A DNA stretch of 64,000 nucleotides, taken from contig CBDCWV010000017.1 of NCBI GenBank assembly GCA_965223565.1, forward strand, positions 84,463 to 148,462, written 5' to 3'. This stretch comes from Myxococcota bacterium (lineage in GTDB: Bacteria > Myxococcota_A > UBA9160 > UBA4427). The notes under the pieces are model-generated. The model worked only from the letters and a program-made list of their open reading frames with translations, did no database searches and had not been told where the DNA came from. Position 1 is the stretch's first letter. Every line of letters starts with the position of its first letter. The translations under genes and the position numbers were made by a program. Positions 27,381 through 34,208 of this stretch are shown piece after piece.

Positions 27381-28613
27381 TCAGCCCGATTCGCGGGAAT
27401 CGGCCTCGACCGCCTCGGCGAGATCGCTCAGGAAATCCGGCATCGCCGACAGCACCCGACTCCAGTTCGGAATCTGCGGCGAGCCCATCGGATCGCGCAC
27501 GAAGTCCAGCCCCGCCGCACGCAGAGCGCCCGAAAAGGTCTCGACCGCGACCTCCTCCTCATGGCGGTCGAAGATCAAGCCGTTCAGCTTGGCGTCATCG
27601 CTATAGCGAGCGATCGCGTCCTGCGCGGTTCGCACGTAGGCGGAGATCATCGTATTCAGGAAGCCCGAATCGAACTCCACGCCATAGCTCGCGAGGTTGC
27701 GAATCAGGGAGGCCGCGATGTCGCGCACCATCCGATGCAGCCCGCGACTCGGGTCGTGCTCCGACAGCGCCTGGTGCTTGTGATCGTAGTTCTCGACCAG
27801 CTCGACCTGACAAATGCGCTTGAGGGAGCAGTTGCGATAGACCTCGGCCAGCACGCCGACCTCGAGCCCCCAATCCGCCGGGATCCGATTCGCGCGCACG
27901 AGCTCGGTCGTCATCGAACACTCACCCGCGAGCGGGTATCGAAACGACTCGAGGTAATCGAGCAAAGGCACTGGTCCCAGTACGGATTTCATCGATCGCA
28001 TGAGGGGTGTCATGAAGAGCCGGGTGACCCGCCCGTGCATCCGGTCCGAGACCCGGCTGTAGTAGCCCTTGGCGAACTCGTAGCTCATGTTCGGATTGGC
28101 GGTCGGATAGCAGAGACGCGCCAGGAGATCGCGACGATAGTCGAGGATGTCGCAGTCGTGACTCGCGACGACGCGGGCACGATGGGTTGCGAGGACGTAG
28201 CCGTAGGCGATCCAGTTGGCCCGCCCCTTGCCGTCGACGCCCGGGTCGAGTCCCTCGTCCCGCAGTCGGGCCAGCAGGGCCTGAATGCGCGGTCCCTGAT
28301 TCCAGATCACGGTCGGTGGCGCACCGGACAGACAGGGGATGCGATCGACGAGTGCGCGCATCTCACGGAACTGGGCCGCATCGGCCTCGCCCGACAGGCT
28401 CAGCACACATTGCGTCAGGTAGGGCACGCGCGACAGCTCGTCGACGATCCGCTTGAGGGCTGGACCGTGGATCTCCGAGTAGAGCGAAGGCAGCACGAGT
28501 GCGATCGGCCGCTCTTCGCTGTACTGAACGAGCTCCGCCTCGAGTCGAGCCAGGTCCGGCTCACCCAGACGATGCAGAGAGGTGATGACGCCTGTCTGGT
28601 GGAAATCCGCCAT
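27381..28613 (-). CDS. GpgS/MpgS-like retaining glycosyltransferase (glucosyl/mannosyl-3-phosphoglycerate synthase-like)
   Basis: N-terminal MADFHQTGVITSLH. Blocks HDCDILDY, HGRVTRLFMTPL, PLAGECSMTTEL, WGLEVGVL and ENYDHKHQ parallel the DxD, GGRVTEL, LSGEYA, YGVEIGLL and HRNR blocks of GpgS-type enzymes. This is based on recollection, not a search. Confidence 0.5.
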   Translation of the reverse strand: MADFHQTGVITSLHRLGEPDLARLEAELVQYSEERPIALVLPSLYSEIHGPALKRIVDELSRVPYLTQCVLSLSGEADAAQFREMRALVDRIPCLSGAPPTVIWNQGPRIQALLARLRDEGLDPGVDGKGRANWIAYGYVLATHRARVVASHDCDILDYRRDLLARLCYPTANPNMSYEFAKGYYSRVSDRMHGRVTRLFMTPLMRSMKSVLGPVPLLDYLESFRYPLAGECSMTTELVRANRIPADWGLEVGVLAEVYRNCSLKRICQVELVENYDHKHQALSEHDPSRGLHRMVRDIAASLIRNLASYGVEFDSGFLNTMISAYVRTAQDAIARYSDDAKLNGLIFDRHEEEVAVETFSGALRAAGLDFVRDPMGSPQIPNWSRVLSAMPDFLSDLAEAVEADSRESG

Positions 28614-28678: not shown

Positions 28679-29041
28679 CTAGCCGACCGGTGTCAGCTCG
28701 GGCTCGATGGCCTCTTCGAGCATGCGAACCACCTCGGGCTCGATCTCGAAGAACTCAATGCCGACTTCCTGGGTCAGGGGATCGAGATCCGTCGCCCAGG
28801 CGACGCGCCCCGAGGCGACGACCGTCTGGTCACCAACGGCGAAGGTCACGCGCAGATGATCACCGAGATTGATCTCGACGCCGACGACTTCGAAGCTGAT
28901 CCCGCCCTTCGACAGGTTCTTCGAGACCGCCAGCCGATCCGAGTGATCGAGCTCGGCGAAGGAGATCACCTGATCCGTCGCGACGCGATGGTACTTGCGT
29001 CGCTCCGCGCCTCTGGCCTCGCTCGTTCCCATCAGCGGCAC
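28679..29041 (-). CDS. PilZ-domain protein (putative c-di-GMP receptor)
   Basis: Both PilZ signatures are present: RRKYHR (RxxxR) and NLSKGG (D/NxSxxG). 120 aa. It is the first gene upstream of the co-directional glycosyltransferase genes. Confidence 0.75.
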   Translation of the reverse strand: MPLMGTSEARGAERRKYHRVATDQVISFAELDHSDRLAVSKNLSKGGISFEVVGVEINLGDHLRVTFAVGDQTVVASGRVAWATDLDPLTQEVGIEFFEIEPEVVRMLEEAIEPELTPVG

Positions 29042-29166: not shown

Positions 29167-30294
29167 TCAGTCCGATTCCGAACCGACCTCCGGGCTCGCT
29201 CCCGGTCCGATGGACGCAAAGAGGTCGAGCTGGCGATCGTCGCGGCCGGCAGCCTCGAGACCCTTCAGAACGAGGCCCACTCGGCGGGTGCGGTCGATCT
29301 CGGGGACCGTGCGCTCGAGCAGACCTCGGGCCGCCCGTGTCAGCTCGTCCGCACGCGTCGCAGCCGCAGGCAGGGTGCAGCTGCGCGTGCGCGTCCTGTC
29401 GTCGGGGCCGGTCAGGCGCAGCGCGATCCGCGCCGCCTGCAGGCCGTCGCGACGCAAGGCCGCCTCGAGATTCTCGGCCAGACGCCGCAGACTCGCCTCG
29501 ATCCGCTCGCGCTCGCGACCGGCCTCGTCGGCATCCTCCAGCGTCTCCTCTCGCGAGAGCGTGTCGGGCCGGCGGCGCACCCGTAGCGGACGCGGATCGT
29601 CGCCACCCGCCAGCTGCCCGAGCACCCGCCCGTGGTTGCCCAGGAGCAGCTCGAGACGATCCTGTCCGAGCGCCCGCAGCCCGGCGACGTCACGCGCGCC
29701 CAGCTCGGCCAGGCGCGCCGCCGTCTTCGGCCCGACACCCGGTAGCCGCTCGATCGGCAAGCCCAGCAGATAGGCCTCGAACTCGTCGGGCTCGACCACC
29801 CGCACGGAATCGCGTCCCGCGTCCTGCGCCGCCAATCGCGCCGCGAAGCGAACCGGCGCGATGCCGACCCGCAATGGCAGACCGGTCCGCGTGGCGACCC
29901 GACTCGCGAGCCGCTCCGCCAGATCGACCGCTGCCTGCCGCTCGCGCGGCATCCGCAGATAGAAGCTTGCGAGCCCTTCGGTCTCGAGCGCCTCGACGAC
30001 TTCGCGAACCGCGGCGCGGAGCCTTCCGGAGGCCTCTCTCGCCAGCCGGATATCCGTCCGCACCCATTGTGCCTCCGGCTCTCGGTCGAGCACCTCCGCC
30101 ACGTGCATGCCCTCCGCGACACCACGCGCCTGGAGCACCGCACTCGCGGCCACGACCTTGCCGCGTTTGGCCGGGTCGCCACCGACGACGATCGGTCGGT
30201 CGTGCCATTCGGGATGACGCTGTCTGACCAGAGCGACGTGAAACTCGGGGACCTCGGCGAAGCCGATCGAGGTCGCGCCGCGCGCTCCCACCAT
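29167..30294 (-). CDS. Y-family DNA polymerase homolog lacking the catalytic carboxylates (ImuB-like)
   Basis: The DinB-like fold is recognisable: PIVVGGDPAKRGKVVAAS, LPIERLPGVGPKTAARL, little-finger region. Where DinB has VDMDxFFA and SLDEAYLD, this protein has AEVPEFHVA and GLASFYLR. The ATG at 30294 overlaps the stop of the upstream gene (TGATG). Confidence 0.65.
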   Translation of the reverse strand: MVGARGATSIGFAEVPEFHVALVRQRHPEWHDRPIVVGGDPAKRGKVVAASAVLQARGVAEGMHVAEVLDREPEAQWVRTDIRLAREASGRLRAAVREVVEALETEGLASFYLRMPRERQAAVDLAERLASRVATRTGLPLRVGIAPVRFAARLAAQDAGRDSVRVVEPDEFEAYLLGLPIERLPGVGPKTAARLAELGARDVAGLRALGQDRLELLLGNHGRVLGQLAGGDDPRPLRVRRRPDTLSREETLEDADEAGRERERIEASLRRLAENLEAALRRDGLQAARIALRLTGPDDRTRTRSCTLPAAATRADELTRAARGLLERTVPEIDRTRRVGLVLKGLEAAGRDDRQLDLFASIGPGASPEVGSESD

Positions 30295-32825
30295 CAGGGT
30301 GCGGGCTCCAGCACGAGCGCGTCCCAATCGCCCTCCTCGATCGCCAGGCGACTCAGCGGAAAGAGCGTCAGACGATGCTTCGACCAGCGCGTGATGCCGT
30401 CCGCGTAGTTGGGATGGCCCGGATGCTCCACCTGTCCCGGCGCCAGCGTACTCAGCATGCCGTCGGGTGCTGCCAGGTCGATTGCGAGTCGGTAGAGCGC
30501 TGCACGTTCTACGGCGAACGAGACACCGGGCCGATGTCGTGCAAAGTCGAGCGTGTGAGCGCCTCCCGGAACCGGCATGCTTTGCAGCGACTCGGAGACG
30601 ATGCCCACCTCGCGTGCGAAGGGCAGGAAGCGCAGGCGATGCAGTCCACCCCACGACCACCGCGAGCGCGTCGGGCCGAGGCGATGGTTGAGGCTGACCC
30701 AGGCAACACGCAGTCCGTCGCGCGCCGCCTCCGCCACACGTGATTGATCCGTCCAGCCACCGGCGCGCCGAAGCCGAGCGGCCTGCACGACGAGCGTCTC
30801 GATCGCCACCTGGGGCTGCACGTGGGGCACCTCGAGGTAGCGCTCGAACAGCGCCGGACCAAAGGGCTCGCGCAGGAGTGCGCCGATCAGATGATCGATC
30901 ACGAGATGATAGGCAGCCGCGCCTCCGCTCTTCGCATTCATGCGCCCATCCCAGCGTTCGAGCAGTCGCGCGATCTCGGCTGCCTCGACCGGCAGCGGAC
31001 CGGCCCGCCGTGCCATTCCGACGATCGCTGCGACCACGCGTGTCACGTCCTGCGCGCGGTCATCGAACAACAGATCCGCGGCCGCGCGCAGGTCGAGGCG
31101 ACCCGCCTCGGTTCGCTCGCGCAGTGCCGCTTCGAGCCGATCCGCCCGATCACCGGGGCGCCAGAGCCACTCGAGCTGATCGAGCCCACCGCGACCCGGC
31201 CAGGGCTGATCGAGTGCCACGATCCAGGGCGCCTCCGGCGCCGCGTCGTCCGACCCGAAGCGCATTGCCGGCAGGCGCTCGATCGGGACGCGTTCGCGCC
31301 AGTCGAAGCTCCGCAATCGACCCTGAACGGGCACCAGTCCCGTCGGCAGCGGACGATCCGCCAGCCAACCCGCGACCTGCAGGCCACCACCCCCGCGCGT
31401 ATCGGCGTAGACGATGGCCAATACCGGCTCGTGATGTTCGGCGAGCGCAGCCTCGACGCCGTCGACGTTTCGCATCCCCAACAGGCGCAACATCGACGTG
31501 ATCCCGTCACCGACGCGCGCCCCCGTCCACGCGAGGGCACGAGCGACACGCTTCGGATCGGTCTCCGCCGCGCGCAGCTCGCCGTTCGGATCCCAGAGCG
31601 ACTCGATCAGGGGACCATGGCGCGTCGAGCGGATCGCCAGCGTCCGTGTCTCGCGCTCGCCGCGCGCGTTGCGGAGGCCGAGCTCCTCGTTGCGCTCCTC
31701 GAAGGGCACCCAGAGCCGACCGTTCTGGTAGCGCCCGCGATCCTCGCGCAGCGTCTCGATGAAGAGATCCGAGATCGGCGCGCTCGCGGGCACGCTCGCC
31801 CAGGCGAAGTCGCGGTTTCGCCCGGCCCAGAAGATCGGTGAGCCGGGCATCGTCGCACCCGCCACGTCGAGCCTGCCCGCCGCCAGATGGGCTTCGTAGA
31901 ACAGCCCCGGGGCGGCGGGCTCGAAATGCCAATCCGCCATCAGCAGCGGTGCGCGGTCTTCGCTCTGCGATCCCGCCAGGACCCAGGCGCCGCCCGTCGG
32001 CGTACCGATCCCGCGACACAGGGCACGCGTCGAGCCGAGCAGTCGTTCGGCGACCGCACGTGAGCGCGCCGTCGGCGCGATGACGTGGCGCGAGACCTCG
32101 GGCGAGACGCGAAAATCGACCGACGCACGCGCTGGAAAGAAGGGCCGTGCGGATACCGCCCCGAGTCGCTGGATCAGATCGTCGAGCACGAGCGTCGTCT
32201 CGAGCGTTCCGCCGATACACCAGGACAGGAGCTTCACGACGGCGATCGAGTCGGCCGGCCGCCAATCCTCGAGCGAGTCGACGTCCCCGATCAGGTGCTT
32301 CGGTGCGGCCACGCGCGCCTCGCGGATGCGTGAGATACGCGCGTTGACGCCTTCGGCGTAGGCGAGCAATACGGCCATCGTTTCGCGCGGGAGTGCTTCG
32401 GCCGTCGCCTCGGAGGCGGCACCGATCGCGAGCACGCGCGCCAGCCGATCCGAAGCGAGTCCGGGCTCACCCATCCACTCGGCGGTCGTTCCCAACGCGC
32501 GGCGGCGCAGCCAGGCCATCTGCGCCAGGCGGTCCTGAGCGTGTGCGAAGCCGAGCGCGAAGAAGCCCTCCTGCTCGGCCTCCGCGAAGAGGTGCGGGAT
32601 GCCGCGGTCGTCGCGCAGGATCTCGATCGGCGAGTCGAGATCAGCCAGGCGGATCGTGCCCGAGACCAGCGCGAAGGACTCGCGGTCGAGGCGATCGTCC
32701 TCGCCCCATCGCCCGGCCAGCAGCAGCAATCCGACGAGCACCGCGGCCAACAGACCGAGCCGAGACACCAGCTGTCGCAACGAGGGCGACCCCACGCCCT
32801 CTCCCCTTGCCTCCTCGGCCGACAT
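30294..32825 (-). CDS. Penicillin-amidase (S45, Ntn-hydrolase) family protein with a substituted nucleophile motif
   Basis: ILRDDRGIPHLFAEAEQEGFFALGFAHAQDRLAQM is the typical S45 alpha-subunit start. The expected SN(A/M)W nucleophile site reads TGGAWVLAGS (nt about 31981-32009), and the NDPH-like block reads ADWH. N-terminal TM anchor. The ORF is open to 33071; the ATG at 32825 is preferred. Confidence 0.7.
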   Translation of the reverse strand: MSAEEARGEGVGSPSLRQLVSRLGLLAAVLVGLLLLAGRWGEDDRLDRESFALVSGTIRLADLDSPIEILRDDRGIPHLFAEAEQEGFFALGFAHAQDRLAQMAWLRRRALGTTAEWMGEPGLASDRLARVLAIGAASEATAEALPRETMAVLLAYAEGVNARISRIREARVAAPKHLIGDVDSLEDWRPADSIAVVKLLSWCIGGTLETTLVLDDLIQRLGAVSARPFFPARASVDFRVSPEVSRHVIAPTARSRAVAERLLGSTRALCRGIGTPTGGAWVLAGSQSEDRAPLLMADWHFEPAAPGLFYEAHLAAGRLDVAGATMPGSPIFWAGRNRDFAWASVPASAPISDLFIETLREDRGRYQNGRLWVPFEERNEELGLRNARGERETRTLAIRSTRHGPLIESLWDPNGELRAAETDPKRVARALAWTGARVGDGITSMLRLLGMRNVDGVEAALAEHHEPVLAIVYADTRGGGGLQVAGWLADRPLPTGLVPVQGRLRSFDWRERVPIERLPAMRFGSDDAAPEAPWIVALDQPWPGRGGLDQLEWLWRPGDRADRLEAALRERTEAGRLDLRAAADLLFDDRAQDVTRVVAAIVGMARRAGPLPVEAAEIARLLERWDGRMNAKSGGAAAYHLVIDHLIGALLREPFGPALFERYLEVPHVQPQVAIETLVVQAARLRRAGGWTDQSRVAEAARDGLRVAWVSLNHRLGPTRSRWSWGGLHRLRFLPFAREVGIVSESLQSMPVPGGAHTLDFARHRPGVSFAVERAALYRLAIDLAAPDGMLSTLAPGQVEHPGHPNYADGITRWSKHRLTLFPLSRLAIEEGDWDALVLEPAP

Positions 32826-32993
32826 CGCGCGGCGTCCCCCCTCCGACTCGGCGCGGCGCCGCGCCCGATCCCGACTCGCCCCGCGAGCGAAAAGAGGCGA
32901 CAAGTCGGGCACTTGAGAGCATACCCGAGGGCGGGTACATTGCGCGCTCCCCCGCCCCGACAACACGAGGCGATCGATCCGCGCGGACGATCG

Positions 32994-34208
32994 ATGCCCG
33001 GACGGTCCGCCAGATTGCCGATCCAATCTCTCGATTCGCTGCTCGAACGACATCCGGTCGCAGGTCGTCACGTTTTCGTGCGTGCCGACCTGAACGTGCC
33101 GCTCTCGGACGGCCGGATCGCAGACGACAGTCGCATCCGCGCGTCACTGCCGACCCTCACGCGGCTGCTCGAAGCTGGCACTCGCGTCGTTCTGGCCTCG
33201 CATCTCGGCCGACCGAAGGGCGCGCGCCGCCCCGAGCTTTCCCTCGCCGTCGTGGCCCCGGCGCTCGCCCGGGCCCTCGACGTGACCGTTCATTTCGCAG
33301 ACGACTGCGTCGGGGCGCCCGCACGCGAGGCGGCGGCCGCGCTCGCGGATGCTGAAGTGCTGCTGCTCGAGAACCTGCGCTTTCACGCCGAAGAGACCGC
33401 GAACGATCCCGCCTTCGCGCGCGCCCTCGCCGAGCTGGCCGATGTCTACGTGAACGACGCCTTCGGCACGGCCCATCGCGCCCACGCGTCGACGGCCGGC
33501 ATCGTCGAGCACGTCGCGCACGCGGCCGCGGGGCTGCTGCTCGAGCGCGAGCTCGAAGCGCTCTCGGCCGTGCTCGACCCGGAGCGCCCCTTCGTCTGCT
33601 TCCTCGGCGGCGCCAAGGTCTCGGACAAGCTCGGCGTACTCGAGGCGCTCGTCGAGCGGGCCGATACGATCGGCGTCGGCGGCGCGATGGCCTACACATT
33701 CCTGCTGGCCCGGGGCGAGTCCGTCGGCCGATCGCTCGTCGAAGGCGATCGTCTGGAGGATGCGCGACGTGTGATCGAGCGCGCCGAGCAACGCGGCTGC
33801 CGATTGCTGCTGCCGACCGATCACGTCGTGAGCGATCGCGTCGCAGCCGATGCCCCAGCCGAGACGACGCGCTCGATTCCCGACGACCGGCTCGGCGTCG
33901 ACATCGGCCCGGAGACCGCCGCGCGCTTCGCCGAGGCCGCCGCCGACGCGCGCACGATCCTCTGGAACGGGCCGATGGGCGTCTTCGAGATCGACGCCTT
34001 CGCGGCTGGCACCGAGGGCGTCGCGCGCGCCGTCGCCGACTCGCCCGCCCGAAGCATCGTCGGGGGCGGCGACTCGCTCGCCGCGGTCGCCAAGGTGGGC
34101 GTCGGCGACCGCATCTCCCACCTCTCGACCGGCGGCGGTGCCTCGCTCGAGTTCGTGCAGGGCTTGACACTCCCGGGTGTCGCCGCCCTCGAAGGAGCGA
34201 ATGCGTGA
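32994..34208 (+). CDS. pgk: Phosphoglycerate kinase
   Basis: VFVRADLNVPL, ASHLGRPKG, FLGGAKVSDK and WNGPMGVFE motifs. About 404 aa counted from the ATG at 32994. Confidence 0.9.
   Translation: MPGRSARLPIQSLDSLLERHPVAGRHVFVRADLNVPLSDGRIADDSRIRASLPTLTRLLEAGTRVVLASHLGRPKGARRPELSLAVVAPALARALDVTVHFADDCVGAPAREAAAALADAEVLLLENLRFHAEETANDPAFARALAELADVYVNDAFGTAHRAHASTAGIVEHVAHAAAGLLLERELEALSAVLDPERPFVCFLGGAKVSDKLGVLEALVERADTIGVGGAMAYTFLLARGESVGRSLVEGDRLEDARRVIERAEQRGCRLLLPTDHVVSDRVAADAPAETTRSIPDDRLGVDIGPETAARFAEAAADARTILWNGPMGVFEIDAFAAGTEGVARAVADSPARSIVGGGDSLAAVAKVGVGDRISHLSTGGGASLEFVQGLTLPGVAALEGANA

What the first reader, a model, noticed from the sequence alone, without database searches (positions are those of the whole stretch)
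29167..32825. Overlapping gene pair of two apparent pseudo-enzymes: S45 acylase without its Ser nucleophile and Y-family polymerase without its catalytic Asp/Glu
Seen in sequence: the penicillin-amidase-family ORF has the family's alpha-subunit start. At the autoprocessing/nucleophile site, where S45 members read G-S-N-x-W, it reads T-G-G-A-W-V-L-A-G-S (about nt 31981-32009). Its TGA overlaps the ATG of a DinB-like ORF (TGATG at 30292-30296). In that ORF the DinB blocks VDMD and SLDEAYLD are AEVP and GLASFYLR.

Established knowledge: the beta-chain N-terminal Ser is essential in Ntn acylases. Y-family polymerases that lack the carboxylate triad (ImuB) act as non-catalytic adaptors in imuA-imuB-dnaE2 mutasomes.

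Inference: neither product can use its family's canonical chemistry, yet both are full-length with normal codon bias and are translationally coupled. No imuA or dnaE2 gene is nearby. A membrane-anchored acylase-fold protein paired with an ImuB-like protein is an unexplained association.
Basis: partly seen in the sequence, partly recalled or inferred. Interest (0 to 1): 0.6.

Follow-up and report, generated by a model that had tools for sequence, protein, structure and literature searches.

The report
Dead polymerase coupled to degenerate acylase
An uncultured class of Myxococcota keeps a DNA polymerase IV copy that cannot polymerise but still has its sliding-clamp hook, translationally coupled to a penicillin-acylase homologue that has lost its catalytic serine in this genome's family; both are real and conserved, but what they do is not known.

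Summary
Gene A (30294-32825, minus strand) is a full-length S45 penicillin-amidase homologue with Gly278 where the family has its Ser nucleophile. Gene B (29167-30294, minus strand) is a complete Y-family fold with E14, A109 and S110 in place of D8, D103 and E104. The two genes share a TGATG stop/start.

Three results change the reading:
- Gene B is not an orphan ImuB. The genome carries dnaE2, a canonical dinB, an imuB-like gene and an imuA-like gene together on another contig. Gene B is a third paralogue, separate from canonical DinB in a tree. It ends in a consensus clamp motif (RQLDLF) and is found only in this class. It persists in genomes that lack DnaE2.
- The pair is adjacent in 50 of 57 genomes of the class. 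Each gene has nevertheless been lost alone in some lineages.
- The acylase is a pseudo-enzyme only in the window's family, where all 12 sampled genomes lack the Ser. The other eight families keep an invariant Gly-Ser and the beta-23 His.

Most likely gene B is a non-catalytic, clamp-bound DNA-binding factor, and gene A is an uncleavable, membrane-anchored binding protein. They are co-expressed but not obligate partners. A joint function is neither shown nor excluded.

The parts
30294..32825 (-). Gene A: S45 penicillin-amidase-fold protein, 843 aa, without a Ser/Thr/Cys at the nucleophile position.
   Evidence: PF01804 matched at positions 1-674 of 675, E = 8e-129. Foldseek top hits are D-succinylase 7eby (E = 1.5e-24) and the precursor cephalosporin acylase 1keh. 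The AF2 model has a mean pLDDT of only 63.
32715..32771 (-). N-terminal hydrophobic helix (residues 19-37, LVSRLGLLAAVLVGLLLLA): a signal anchor or signal peptide.
   Evidence: Mean Kyte-Doolittle hydropathy over 19 residues is 2.43. A comparable stretch is present in all 18 homologues. AF2 predicts a helix at residues 16-49. Orientation was not determined.
31983..32003 (-). Degenerate autoprocessing/nucleophile site T275-P-T-G278-G-A-W281. Gly278 sits where the family has beta-Ser1.
   Evidence: Single-sequence and profile alignments to PDB beta chains. Class-wide alignment: families f2-f9 have an invariant G-S here, and family f1 has G, V or A.
30292..30296 (-). TGATG: the stop codon of gene A shares one base with the ATG of gene B.
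   Evidence: Overlapping ATGA, GTGA or TGATG junctions are also seen in distant relatives.
29167..30294 (-). Gene B: catalytically dead Y-family (DinB-derived) paralogue, 375 aa.
   Evidence: PF00817, PF11798 and PF11799 match. It scores below all NCBIfam Pol IV cut-offs (155.7 bits against 389). AF2 mean pLDDT is 87. Foldseek top hits are MsDpo4, DinB and Dpo4, with E down to 5e-31.
30247..30258 (-). A-E-V-P in place of V-D-M-D. The first catalytic Asp is Glu14 and the second Asp of the motif is Pro16.
   Evidence: Pro at the D10 position is invariant in the aligned class-wide pseudo-polymerases.
29953..29976 (-). G-L-A-S-F-Y-L-R in place of S-L-D-E-A-Y-L-D. D103 and E104 are Ala109 and Ser110.
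   Evidence: The E104 equivalent is absent in every family member examined.
29218..29232 (-). Q-L-D-L-F: consensus beta-clamp-binding pentapeptide in a disordered C-terminal tail.
   Evidence: RQL[D/R/E]LF lies at or near the C-terminus of nearly all homologues, down to 31-38% identity. pLDDT is below 50 for residues 351-375.
32922..32937 (.). 16-nt palindrome TACCCG-N4-CGGGTA in the 168-nt divergent pgk/gene A promoter region.
   Evidence: Conserved with up to 3 changes at the same place in 15 related loci. It is unique in the 6.8-Mb genome. It overlaps the only sigma-70-like match in the region.
28679..29041 (-). PilZ-domain gene, 125 nt downstream of gene B. Part of the conserved block.
   Evidence: PF07238, E = 1.4e-11. 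Syntenic in most relatives.
27381..28613 (-). GpgS-like glycosyltransferase (glucosyl-3-phosphoglycerate synthase type). The most conserved gene of the block.
   Evidence: NF040724 over its full length, 351 bits, below the cut-off of 700. It is 50-91% identical across the class.

Best explanation
The locus is an old bicistron, conserved across one class, that sits between the divergent pgk-tpiA-secG operon and a PilZ / GpgS-like / glycosyltransferase row.

Gene B is a third Y-family paralogue (shown).
- It has lost the metal-binding carboxylates, and in this genus also the Ser/Thr/Tyr that hold the dNTP.
- It keeps the whole palm-fingers-thumb-little-finger fold and the helix-hairpin-helix segment.
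- It keeps a strictly conserved C-terminal RQLDLF clamp-binding peptide on a flexible tail.

Inferred for gene B: it binds DNA and the beta sliding clamp without synthesising DNA. It would act as a clamp-occupying regulator or adaptor of polymerase traffic. It works independently of ImuA, ImuB and DnaE2.

Gene A is an S45 Ntn-acylase homologue with an N-terminal membrane anchor or signal. In this genome's family its Gly-Ser autoprocessing/nucleophile site has decayed to Gly-Gly (shown).

Inferred for gene A: it cannot self-cleave into alpha and beta chains or form an acyl-enzyme. It survives as a single-chain binding or structural protein of the envelope.

The two genes are co-transcribed and probably translationally coupled. 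They are not obligate partners, because either one can be lost while the other is kept.
For: Loss of catalytic residues:
- Gene A: beta-Ser1 aligns with Gly278, and the oxyanion Asn aligns with Ala or Asp.
- Gene B: E14, A109 and S110.

Folds kept.

Clamp motif: RQL[D/R/E]LF is at or near the C-terminus across the class, while overall identity falls to 31-38%.

Gene B is a separate paralogue:
- In a maximum-likelihood tree all 26 pseudo-polymerases lie on one side of a 100/100 branch. The canonical DinBs from inside and outside the class group together at 100/100.
- The profile search finds the paralogue only in the window's class. Elsewhere in the phylum there is only canonical DinB with DMD and DE intact.

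Gene B is not the mutasome's ImuB:
- The genome's own contig C5 carries dnaE2 (NF004225, 1198 bits), dinB (NF002882, 394 bits), an imuB-like gene and an imuA-like gene.
- Gene B is kept in G113, G118 and G193, which have no DnaE2 above the cut-off. DnaE2 is kept in G008, which lacks gene B.
- In G193, G223 and G298, gene B's orthologue is the only Y-family match at E <= 1e-20.

Linkage: gene A lies directly upstream of gene B in 50 of 57 class genomes. The stop and start overlap in the window and in the five homologue loci read first, and in some of the distant loci.

Independent loss:
- The acylase is absent and gene B intact in G193 and G027.
- The acylase is broken in G198.
- Gene B is absent and the acylase intact in G008 and G063.

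Purifying selection: both ORFs are intact in more than 50 genomes at 31-66% identity.
Against: - No biochemical, expression or interaction data exist.
- Clamp binding is inferred from a motif only.
- The topology of gene A's product is undetermined. K/R counts on the two sides of the helix are ambiguous, so a cytoplasmic domain is not excluded.
- A Thr or Ser at position 277 is conserved within the window's genus-level clade. It could be a shifted nucleophile.
- The near-universal stop/start overlap across a whole class is more than mere neighbourhood usually gives, and it fits a stoichiometric relationship.
- The acylase model is of low confidence (pLDDT 63).
Confidence: 0.6

Rival explanations
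1. The two proteins form one functional module. The membrane-anchored acylase-fold protein would sense or bind an envelope ligand. Through its short N-terminal tail, or through a cytoplasmic orientation of its domain, it would tether or release the clamp-binding dead polymerase. This would link the state of the envelope to replication or repair.
For: - The genes are adjacent in 50 of 57 class genomes, and many junctions have a 1-4-nt stop/start overlap, even where the proteins are only about 32% identical.
- Both genes evolve fast and at similar rates, with mean Kimura distances of 0.82 and 0.87 against 0.41 for Pgk.
- The charge distribution around the anchor does not exclude a cytoplasmic domain.
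Against: - Each gene is kept intact after the other is lost: G193, G027 and G198 on one side, G008 and G063 on the other.
- There is no specific co-evolution signal. The partial correlation for gene A and gene B is 0.57, no higher than gene A with WbaP (0.65) or gene B with WbaP (0.68).
- The N-terminal tail is conserved only within the closest clade.
- By family precedent the acylase domain is extracytoplasmic.
Confidence: 0.2
2. Gene B is an ImuB-type adaptor that recruits DnaE2, or another polymerase, to the clamp. It would be a second mutasome scaffold.
For: It is a dead Y-family core with a clamp motif, as in ImuB (PMC10421592, PMC6511836). The genome encodes DnaE2. Inactive PolY homologues coupled with DnaE2 but lacking ImuA are described in PMC6511836.
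Against: - There is no ImuB-C domain and no RecA-NT motif. Homologues end at the clamp motif. The class's canonical DinBs do carry a RecA-NT-like tail.
- It is not linked to dnaE2 or imuA. The genome has its own imuA-like/imuB-like pair.
- It is kept in genomes without DnaE2.
- No lexA-type palindrome (GAAC-N3/4-GTTC) lies in the window.
Confidence: 0.08
3. Gene A is still an enzyme. Its nucleophile has moved by one residue to Thr277, or the fold uses a new site such as the family-specific His464-His465-Glu466.
For: - Thr or Ser at position 277 is conserved in the genus-level clade, and His300 is kept in the window.
- HHEP is conserved in most of families f1-f8 and is absent from canonical acylases.
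- Catalytic residues that have migrated are a known pitfall in calling pseudo-enzymes (PMC10211241).
Against: - Other genera of the same family have no Ser, Thr or Cys at the equivalent positions, for example EGGGAW in G057 and LQVGAW in G103.
- The beta-23 residue varies there: H, Q, N, S or A.
- Pro276 would be the residue before the scissile bond.
- The oxyanion Asn is missing.
Confidence: 0.1
4. One or both ORFs are decaying pseudogenes or chance ORFs in high-GC DNA.
For: Catalytic residues are lost. Both evolve about twice as fast as Pgk. In a 70% GC genome long spurious ORFs are common.
Against: - The frames are intact in more than 50 genomes spanning a class.
- Many columns are invariant.
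- The GC3 signature is that of coding sequence.
- Family HMM matches cover the full length, and gene B gives a confident fold.
Confidence: 0.02

Closest known systems
[quoted passage not shown]
   Same: It is a Y-family fold without the catalytic carboxylates, and it keeps a beta-clamp-binding motif. A non-catalytic role at the clamp is expected.
   Different: - There is no C-terminal ImuB-C domain and no RecA-NT motif.
- By sequence it is DinB-derived: 32% identical to the genome's own DinB, against a marginal hit to the imuB-like ORF.
- It is not next to imuA or dnaE2, and it persists without DnaE2.
- The genome has a separate imuA-like/imuB-like pair.
Other inactive PolY homologues noted by Timinskas and Venclovas (e.g. 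the scDinB2-like and Kyrpidia-type groups; PMC6511836, PMC12926913)
   Same: These are catalytically dead relatives of the PolY core with clamp motifs, described as dispersed or diffuse groups.
   Different: - Those groups are linked to dnaE2 and/or ImuB-C, and most carry RecA-NT.
- This family forms a tight clade restricted to one class. About 30 of the best 150 representatives at 50% identity belong to it.
- It lacks RecA-NT and is coupled to an acylase gene. Neither paper mentions an acylase or amidase.
Canonical DinB / DNA polymerase IV
   Same: Same domain order, helix-hairpin-helix, little finger and position of the clamp motif. The Foldseek top hits are DinB, Dpo4 and MsDpo4.
   Different: - The D8, D103 and E104 equivalents are E, A and S.
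- The dNTP-contact motif S-T-x-S-Y-E-A-R reads A-A-S-A-V-L-Q-A-R.
- It scores below every NCBIfam Pol IV cut-off.
S45 Ntn acylases (penicillin G acylase, cephalosporin acylase, PvdQ, D-succinylase) and their engineered Ser1 mutants (e.g. PDB 4pem, the S1G mutant of Kluyvera PGA)
   Same: The full-length fold, the alpha-domain start, the variable spacer region and the C-terminal PGQSxHP motif are all present. The natural Gly at beta-1 mirrors the engineered S1G substitution.
   Different: - Natural loss of Ser-beta1, and in the family also of His/Gln-beta23 and Asn-beta241.
- The N-terminal anchor is retained.
- New family-specific HHEP motif.
- Under selection as a presumably uncleaved single chain.

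Membership tests
S45 penicillin amidase family (PF01804 / MEROPS S45) | Full-length match to the family profile and fold | tested here: met
   PF01804 positions 1-674 of 675, 432 bits. Foldseek to 7eby, E = 1.5e-24.
S45 penicillin amidase family (PF01804 / MEROPS S45) | Ser (or Thr/Cys) at beta-1, the nucleophile for both autoproteolysis and catalysis | tested here: not met
   Beta-Ser1 of PGA, cephalosporin acylase and D-succinylase aligns with Gly278. It is lost in all 12 sampled family f1 genomes and kept in 19 genomes of families f2-f9. The role of B-S1 is taken from PMC11241749.
S45 penicillin amidase family (PF01804 / MEROPS S45) | His/Gln at beta-23 and Asn at beta-241 (oxyanion hole) | tested here: not met
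   His300 is present in the window. In family f1 the position varies: H, Q, N, S or A. The Asn position aligns with Ala or Asp.
S45 penicillin amidase family (PF01804 / MEROPS S45) | Autoproteolytic maturation into alpha and beta chains | not testable with these tools
   Needs expression and SDS-PAGE or mass spectrometry.
DNA polymerase IV (DinB) | Score over the curated equivalog cut-off | tested here: not met
   The best match is NF002882 at 155.7 bits against a cut-off of 389. The genome's real dinB scores 394.5.
DNA polymerase IV (DinB) | Catalytic carboxylates D8, D103 and E104 (E. coli numbering) | tested here: not met
   They are E14, A109 and S110. The canonical DinBs aligned alongside keep DMD and DE.
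DNA polymerase IV (DinB) | Y-family fold with little finger and a C-terminal clamp-binding motif | tested here: met
   pLDDT 87. Foldseek E = 5e-31. QLDLF at residues 355-359.
ImuB | Inactive Y-family core with a beta-clamp motif | tested here: met
ImuB | C-terminal extension (ImuB-C, RecA-NT motif) that binds ImuA/ImuA' and DnaE2 | tested here: not met
   Homologues end at the ...RQLDLF motif. The window protein has only 16 further, unconserved residues.
ImuB | Genomic and phyletic association with imuA and dnaE2 | tested here: not met
   dnaE2, imuB-like and imuA-like genes are on contig C5. Gene B orthologues are present in G113, G118 and G193 without DnaE2, and absent from G008, which has DnaE2.

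The most novel reading that the evidence does not exclude
The acylase-fold protein and the dead polymerase are two halves of an undescribed signalling module. A membrane-anchored ligand-binding Ntn fold, catalytic in most families and purely a binder in this one, would control a clamp-binding Y-family pseudo-enzyme by sequestering or releasing it. This would couple the state of the envelope or of acyl-metabolites to replisome or repair activity. The gene would then be kept even in streamlined genomes that have dropped DinB and DnaE2.
Probability: 0.12. Interest if true: 0.85.

Novelty: new variant of a known kind. Interest (0 to 1): 0.55.

Why it matters
- **For the translesion-synthesis field.** Inactive Y-family polymerases are understood only through ImuB. 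This is a second, phylogenetically coherent dead-polymerase family with a near-consensus clamp hook. It has no RecA-NT or ImuB-C module and does not depend on DnaE2. In some reduced genomes it is the only Y-family gene left. That points to a basic, non-mutagenic role at the sliding clamp, and the role is directly testable by clamp binding, polymerase competition and replication slowing.
- **For pseudo-enzyme evolution.** The acylase offers a natural series within one orthologous group: Gly-Ser/His kept, then Gly-Gly-Ser/Thr, then Gly-Gly. This is a clean system for asking what an Ntn fold does once it can no longer cut itself.
- **For the gene pair.** The very stable stop/start coupling of an envelope-type gene and a replication-type gene remains unexplained.

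Tried and rejected
- **Co-evolution test.** Partial correlations of distance matrices for six block genes over 19 loci gave gene A-gene B 0.57. That is not above gene A-WbaP (0.65) or gene B-WbaP (0.68), so the test is uninformative.
- **dN/dS.** Not computed. The closest available orthologues are only 65-66% identical, so synonymous sites would be saturated.
- **SOS regulation.**
  - The conserved intergenic palindrome is unique in the genome, so it is not a regulon box.
  - The upstream regions of lexA, recA, imuA, dnaE2 and dinB share no 10-mer in three or more of them.
  - A palindrome CAGAACAGCGTTCTG lies upstream of lexA. No GAAC-N3/4-GTTC site lies anywhere in the window.
  - This is a weak negative, because this lineage's LexA box is not established.
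- **Defence system.** No PADLOC match for any of the four genes.
- **Structure of the acylase active site.** The AF2 model has a mean pLDDT of 63, with low confidence at residues 274-278. It was used for fold assignment only.
- **Topology.** K/R counts around the anchor are ambiguous. No signal-peptide or topology predictor was available.
- **First acylase alignment (A2).** It sampled only sequences of the window's family type (Gly at position 278) and wrongly suggested an 'invariant Gly278'. Class-wide sampling corrected this.
- **Longer gene B ORF from GTG at 30660.** Rejected, because GC3 falls from 0.82 to 0.745 when that stretch is included, and homologues start at the overlap.

Full report
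**1. What is in the window**

On the minus strand, an 843-codon ORF (30294-32825) is followed by a 375-codon ORF (29167-30294). The junction reads CCCTGATGG, so the TGA of the first gene shares its A with the ATG of the second.

Both ORFs have the GC3 signature of the neighbouring genes (0.81-0.82). The longer reading of gene B from the GTG at 30660 lowers GC3 to 0.745 and is not supported by homologues.

The neighbours are as follows.
- Upstream and divergent: pgk (ATG at 32994), tpiA and secG.
- Downstream: a PilZ gene, a 410-aa gene with no Pfam hit, a GT-C (PMT_2) glycosyltransferase and a WbaP-type sugar transferase.

**2. Gene A**

It matches PF01804 from end to end (E = 8e-129). Alignments to solved acylases place the beta-chain N-terminal Ser opposite Gly278 in the sequence T-P-T-G-G-A-W. 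This holds for the single sequence and for a profile.

The oxyanion-hole Asn aligns with Ala or Asp. The beta-23 position is His in the window.

An N-terminal hydrophobic helix (residues 19-37) is present in all homologues. The flanking charges do not settle its orientation.

The AF2 model is only moderately confident (pLDDT 63). Its low-confidence stretches include the variable spacer (223-251) and the junction (274-278). Even so, its best structural matches are D-succinylase and uncleaved precursor acylases.

**3. Gene B**

It carries PF00817, PF11798 and PF11799. It scores far below every NCBIfam Pol IV cut-off (155.7 bits against 389).

In alignments to solved DinB and Dpo4 structures, and to canonical DinBs of the same lineage:
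- D8, M9 and D10 become E14, V15 and P16.
- D103 and E104 become A109 and S110.
- The dNTP-contact motif is degenerate.

The AF2 model is confident (pLDDT 87) and matches Y-family polymerases with E down to 5e-31. The last 25 residues are disordered. They contain Q-L-D-L-F, the consensus beta-clamp pentapeptide, at residues 355-359.

**4. The rest of the genome**

The genome (6.8 Mb, 18 contigs) has three IMS-family genes. Contig C5 carries, within about 10 kb:
- dnaE2 (NF004225, 1198 bits, over the cut-off);
- a canonical dinB (NF002882, 394.5 bits, over the cut-off);
- an imuB-like ORF;
- immediately upstream of that, a RecA-fold imuA-like ORF.

Gene B is therefore a third paralogue, not the organism's ImuB. 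It is 32% identical to the genome's own DinB over its full length. It gives only a marginal BLASTP hit (E = 5e-4) to the imuB-like ORF.

**5. Distribution of gene B**

More than 120 clusters at 90% identity, 55-66% identical to gene B, come from Myxococcota or 'Deltaproteobacteria' MAGs. In a library of representatives at 50% identity, about 30 of the best 150 hits are of this type. Below about 210 bits the hits are canonical DinBs with HVDMD.

A profile search of 301 genomes of the phylum gives a bimodal result:
- Genomes of the window's class have the paralogue at 184-580 bits, usually together with a canonical DinB at about 140-165 bits.
- Outside the class only the canonical type is found, with DMD and DE intact.

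In a maximum-likelihood tree the 26 pseudo-polymerases lie on one side of a 100/100 branch. All canonical DinBs, from inside and outside the class, group together at 100/100.

Every pseudo-polymerase examined lacks the E104 and D8 equivalents and has Pro at the D10 position. Some keep D103.

Nearly all end in RQL[D/R/E]LF and have no tail beyond it. The class's canonical DinBs continue into a RecA-NT-like motif...RLNRALDEI..RFG.

The literature recognises inactive PolY homologues other than ImuB as dispersed groups. Most carry RecA-NT or are linked to dnaE2 or ImuB-C. Neither paper mentions an acylase or amidase (PMC6511836, PMC12926913).

**6. Conservation of the pair**

The block pgk<>acylase-IMS-PilZ-GpgS-like-(GT-C)-WbaP is found in every long contig examined, with the stop/start overlap kept.

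I combined the coordinates of the gene B profile search and the gene A profile search over 57 other genomes of the class. Gene A lies directly upstream of gene B in 50 of them. This includes the most distant family, where the proteins are only 31-38% identical to the window's. Two further cases are cut by contig ends.

The exceptions are informative:
- G193 (2.8 Mb) and G027 (3.1 Mb) have gap-pgk<>IMS directly. The acylase is gone and gene B is intact.
- In G198 the acylase is split. The N-terminal part, with an in-frame TGA, stays next to pgk. The C-terminal remnant has moved away with gene B and the GpgS-like gene.
- G008 and G063 (one family) have pgk<>acylase-PilZ-GpgS with gene B gone.

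Either gene can therefore be lost alone. A distance-matrix co-evolution test was not discriminating. Both genes evolve about twice as fast as Pgk and about three times as fast as the GpgS-like gene.

**7. Relation to DnaE2 and DinB**

DnaE2 is over the cut-off in 49 of the 57 genomes.
- Gene B orthologues are kept in G113, G118 and G193, which lack DnaE2.
- DnaE2 is kept in G008, which lacks gene B.
- In G193, G223 and G298 the pseudo-polymerase is the only Y-family match at E <= 1e-20.

This speaks against a role as a DnaE2 adaptor. It suggests a function that survives genome streamlining.

**8. The acylase is a pseudo-enzyme only in this family**

My first alignment sampled only sequences with Gly at position 278, of the window's family type. 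Sampling 31 orthologues across nine families gives a different picture.
- Families f2-f9 (19 genomes) read x-G-S-[S/L/T/A]-[A/G]-[W/F/V] with an invariant Gly-Ser, followed by an invariant D-x-H.
- A profile of eight of these aligns its Ser exactly to beta-residue 1 of solved beta chains. It scores 364 bits against D-succinylase, compared with 205 bits for the window-type profile.
- All 12 sampled genomes of family f1 (seven genera) have Gly, Val or Ala at that position. The beta-23 residue there is H, Q, N, S or A.
- Within f1, several genera read G-G-[S/T]-A-W. The window's genus reads P-[T/S]-G-[G/S]-A-W, mostly PTGGAW.

The ancestral pair was therefore 'probably processing-competent acylase plus dead polymerase'. 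The double pseudo-enzyme state is derived.

Even the Ser-keeping orthologues have Asp, or nothing, where canonical enzymes have the oxyanion Asn. The whole orthologous group is therefore atypical.

The f1 proteins remain full length (843-881 aa) and open across seven genera. The fold is thus still selected for. A shifted nucleophile at Thr277 in the window's genus cannot be excluded. It is disfavoured by the other f1 genera and by Pro276.

**9. Regulation**

The 168-nt region between pgk and gene A holds a 16-nt palindrome (32922-32937). It is conserved at the same place in relatives and is unique in the genome. This makes it a local operator or promoter element rather than a regulon box.

No GAAC-N3/4-GTTC site, the type found in front of lexA, occurs in the window. 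No PADLOC model matches.

**10. Reading**

Shown:
- two intact, conserved genes whose products lack their families' catalytic residues in this genome;
- a stop/start-overlapped, class-wide linkage;
- a separate mutasome elsewhere in the genome;
- independent loss of either gene;
- family-level timing of the acylase's decay.

Inferred:
- gene B's product binds the clamp and DNA without catalysis and modulates polymerase access;
- gene A's product is an uncleaved, membrane-associated binding protein;
- the two are co-expressed but act separately.

A joint module remains possible, at roughly one chance in five to eight. It would be the interesting outcome.

It is not independent evidence.

Noticed in passing
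window 27381-28613 (-): This 410-aa gene has no Pfam hit. It matches NCBIfam NF040724 (glucosyl-3-phosphoglycerate synthase, Methanococcoides type) over its full length at 351 bits, below the cut-off of 700. It is the most conserved gene of the block (50-91% identity, more than Pgk). It lies close to pgk, which makes its presumed substrate 3-phosphoglycerate.
   Followed up: partly
window 32922-32937: The palindrome TACCCGAGGGCGGGTA lies between the -35-like and -10-like hexamers of the only sigma-70-like match in the region, in the pgk/acylase divergent region. It is conserved at the same place in 15 related loci and is unique in the 6.8-Mb genome.
   Followed up: yes
genome contig C5:152314-162317 (locus L037): A compact SOS-type neighbourhood: dnaE2 (-), canonical dinB (+) with a RecA-NT-like tail, a small methyltransferase-like ORF, an imuB-like ORF (-) and an imuA-like RecA-fold ORF (-). 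The imuB-like N-terminus reads LLVPNLPL, so it too has Pro where DinB has its second Asp.
   Followed up: partly
L038 and L056 (genome G198, contigs C3 and C2): The acylase orthologue is broken in two by a rearrangement. The N-terminal part, with an in-frame TGA, stays beside pgk. The C-terminal 200-residue remnant sits in front of the intact dead polymerase and the GpgS-like gene on another contig.
   Followed up: partly
window residues 464-467 of gene A (about nt 31425-31436): The motif H-H-E-P is conserved in most orthologues of families f1-f8. It is absent from family f9 and from canonical acylases, which have W-G-A-P or similar. Together with the His-rich C-terminal PGQSEHPGHP, it could mark a new metal or ligand site.
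   Followed up: no
genome contig C1:118886 and C4:38042: The perfect palindrome CAGAAC-N3-GTTCTG lies just upstream of lexA and occurs at one other place in the genome. It is a candidate LexA operator of this lineage. None occurs in the window.
   Followed up: partly
protein P0264 (representative library): This 447-aa database protein begins with the acylase C-terminus (...SRLVIEEENAERLVLEPAP) and runs on, out of frame, into the dead polymerase. It is probably a frameshifted assembly of the same junction, not a natural fusion.
   Followed up: no
protein P0291 (representative library): This is another apparently impaired Y-family type (HIVLDDFY, GLDRFFVD, ...EQLSLFG) with a long N-terminal extension. 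It is unrelated to the family studied here.
   Followed up: no
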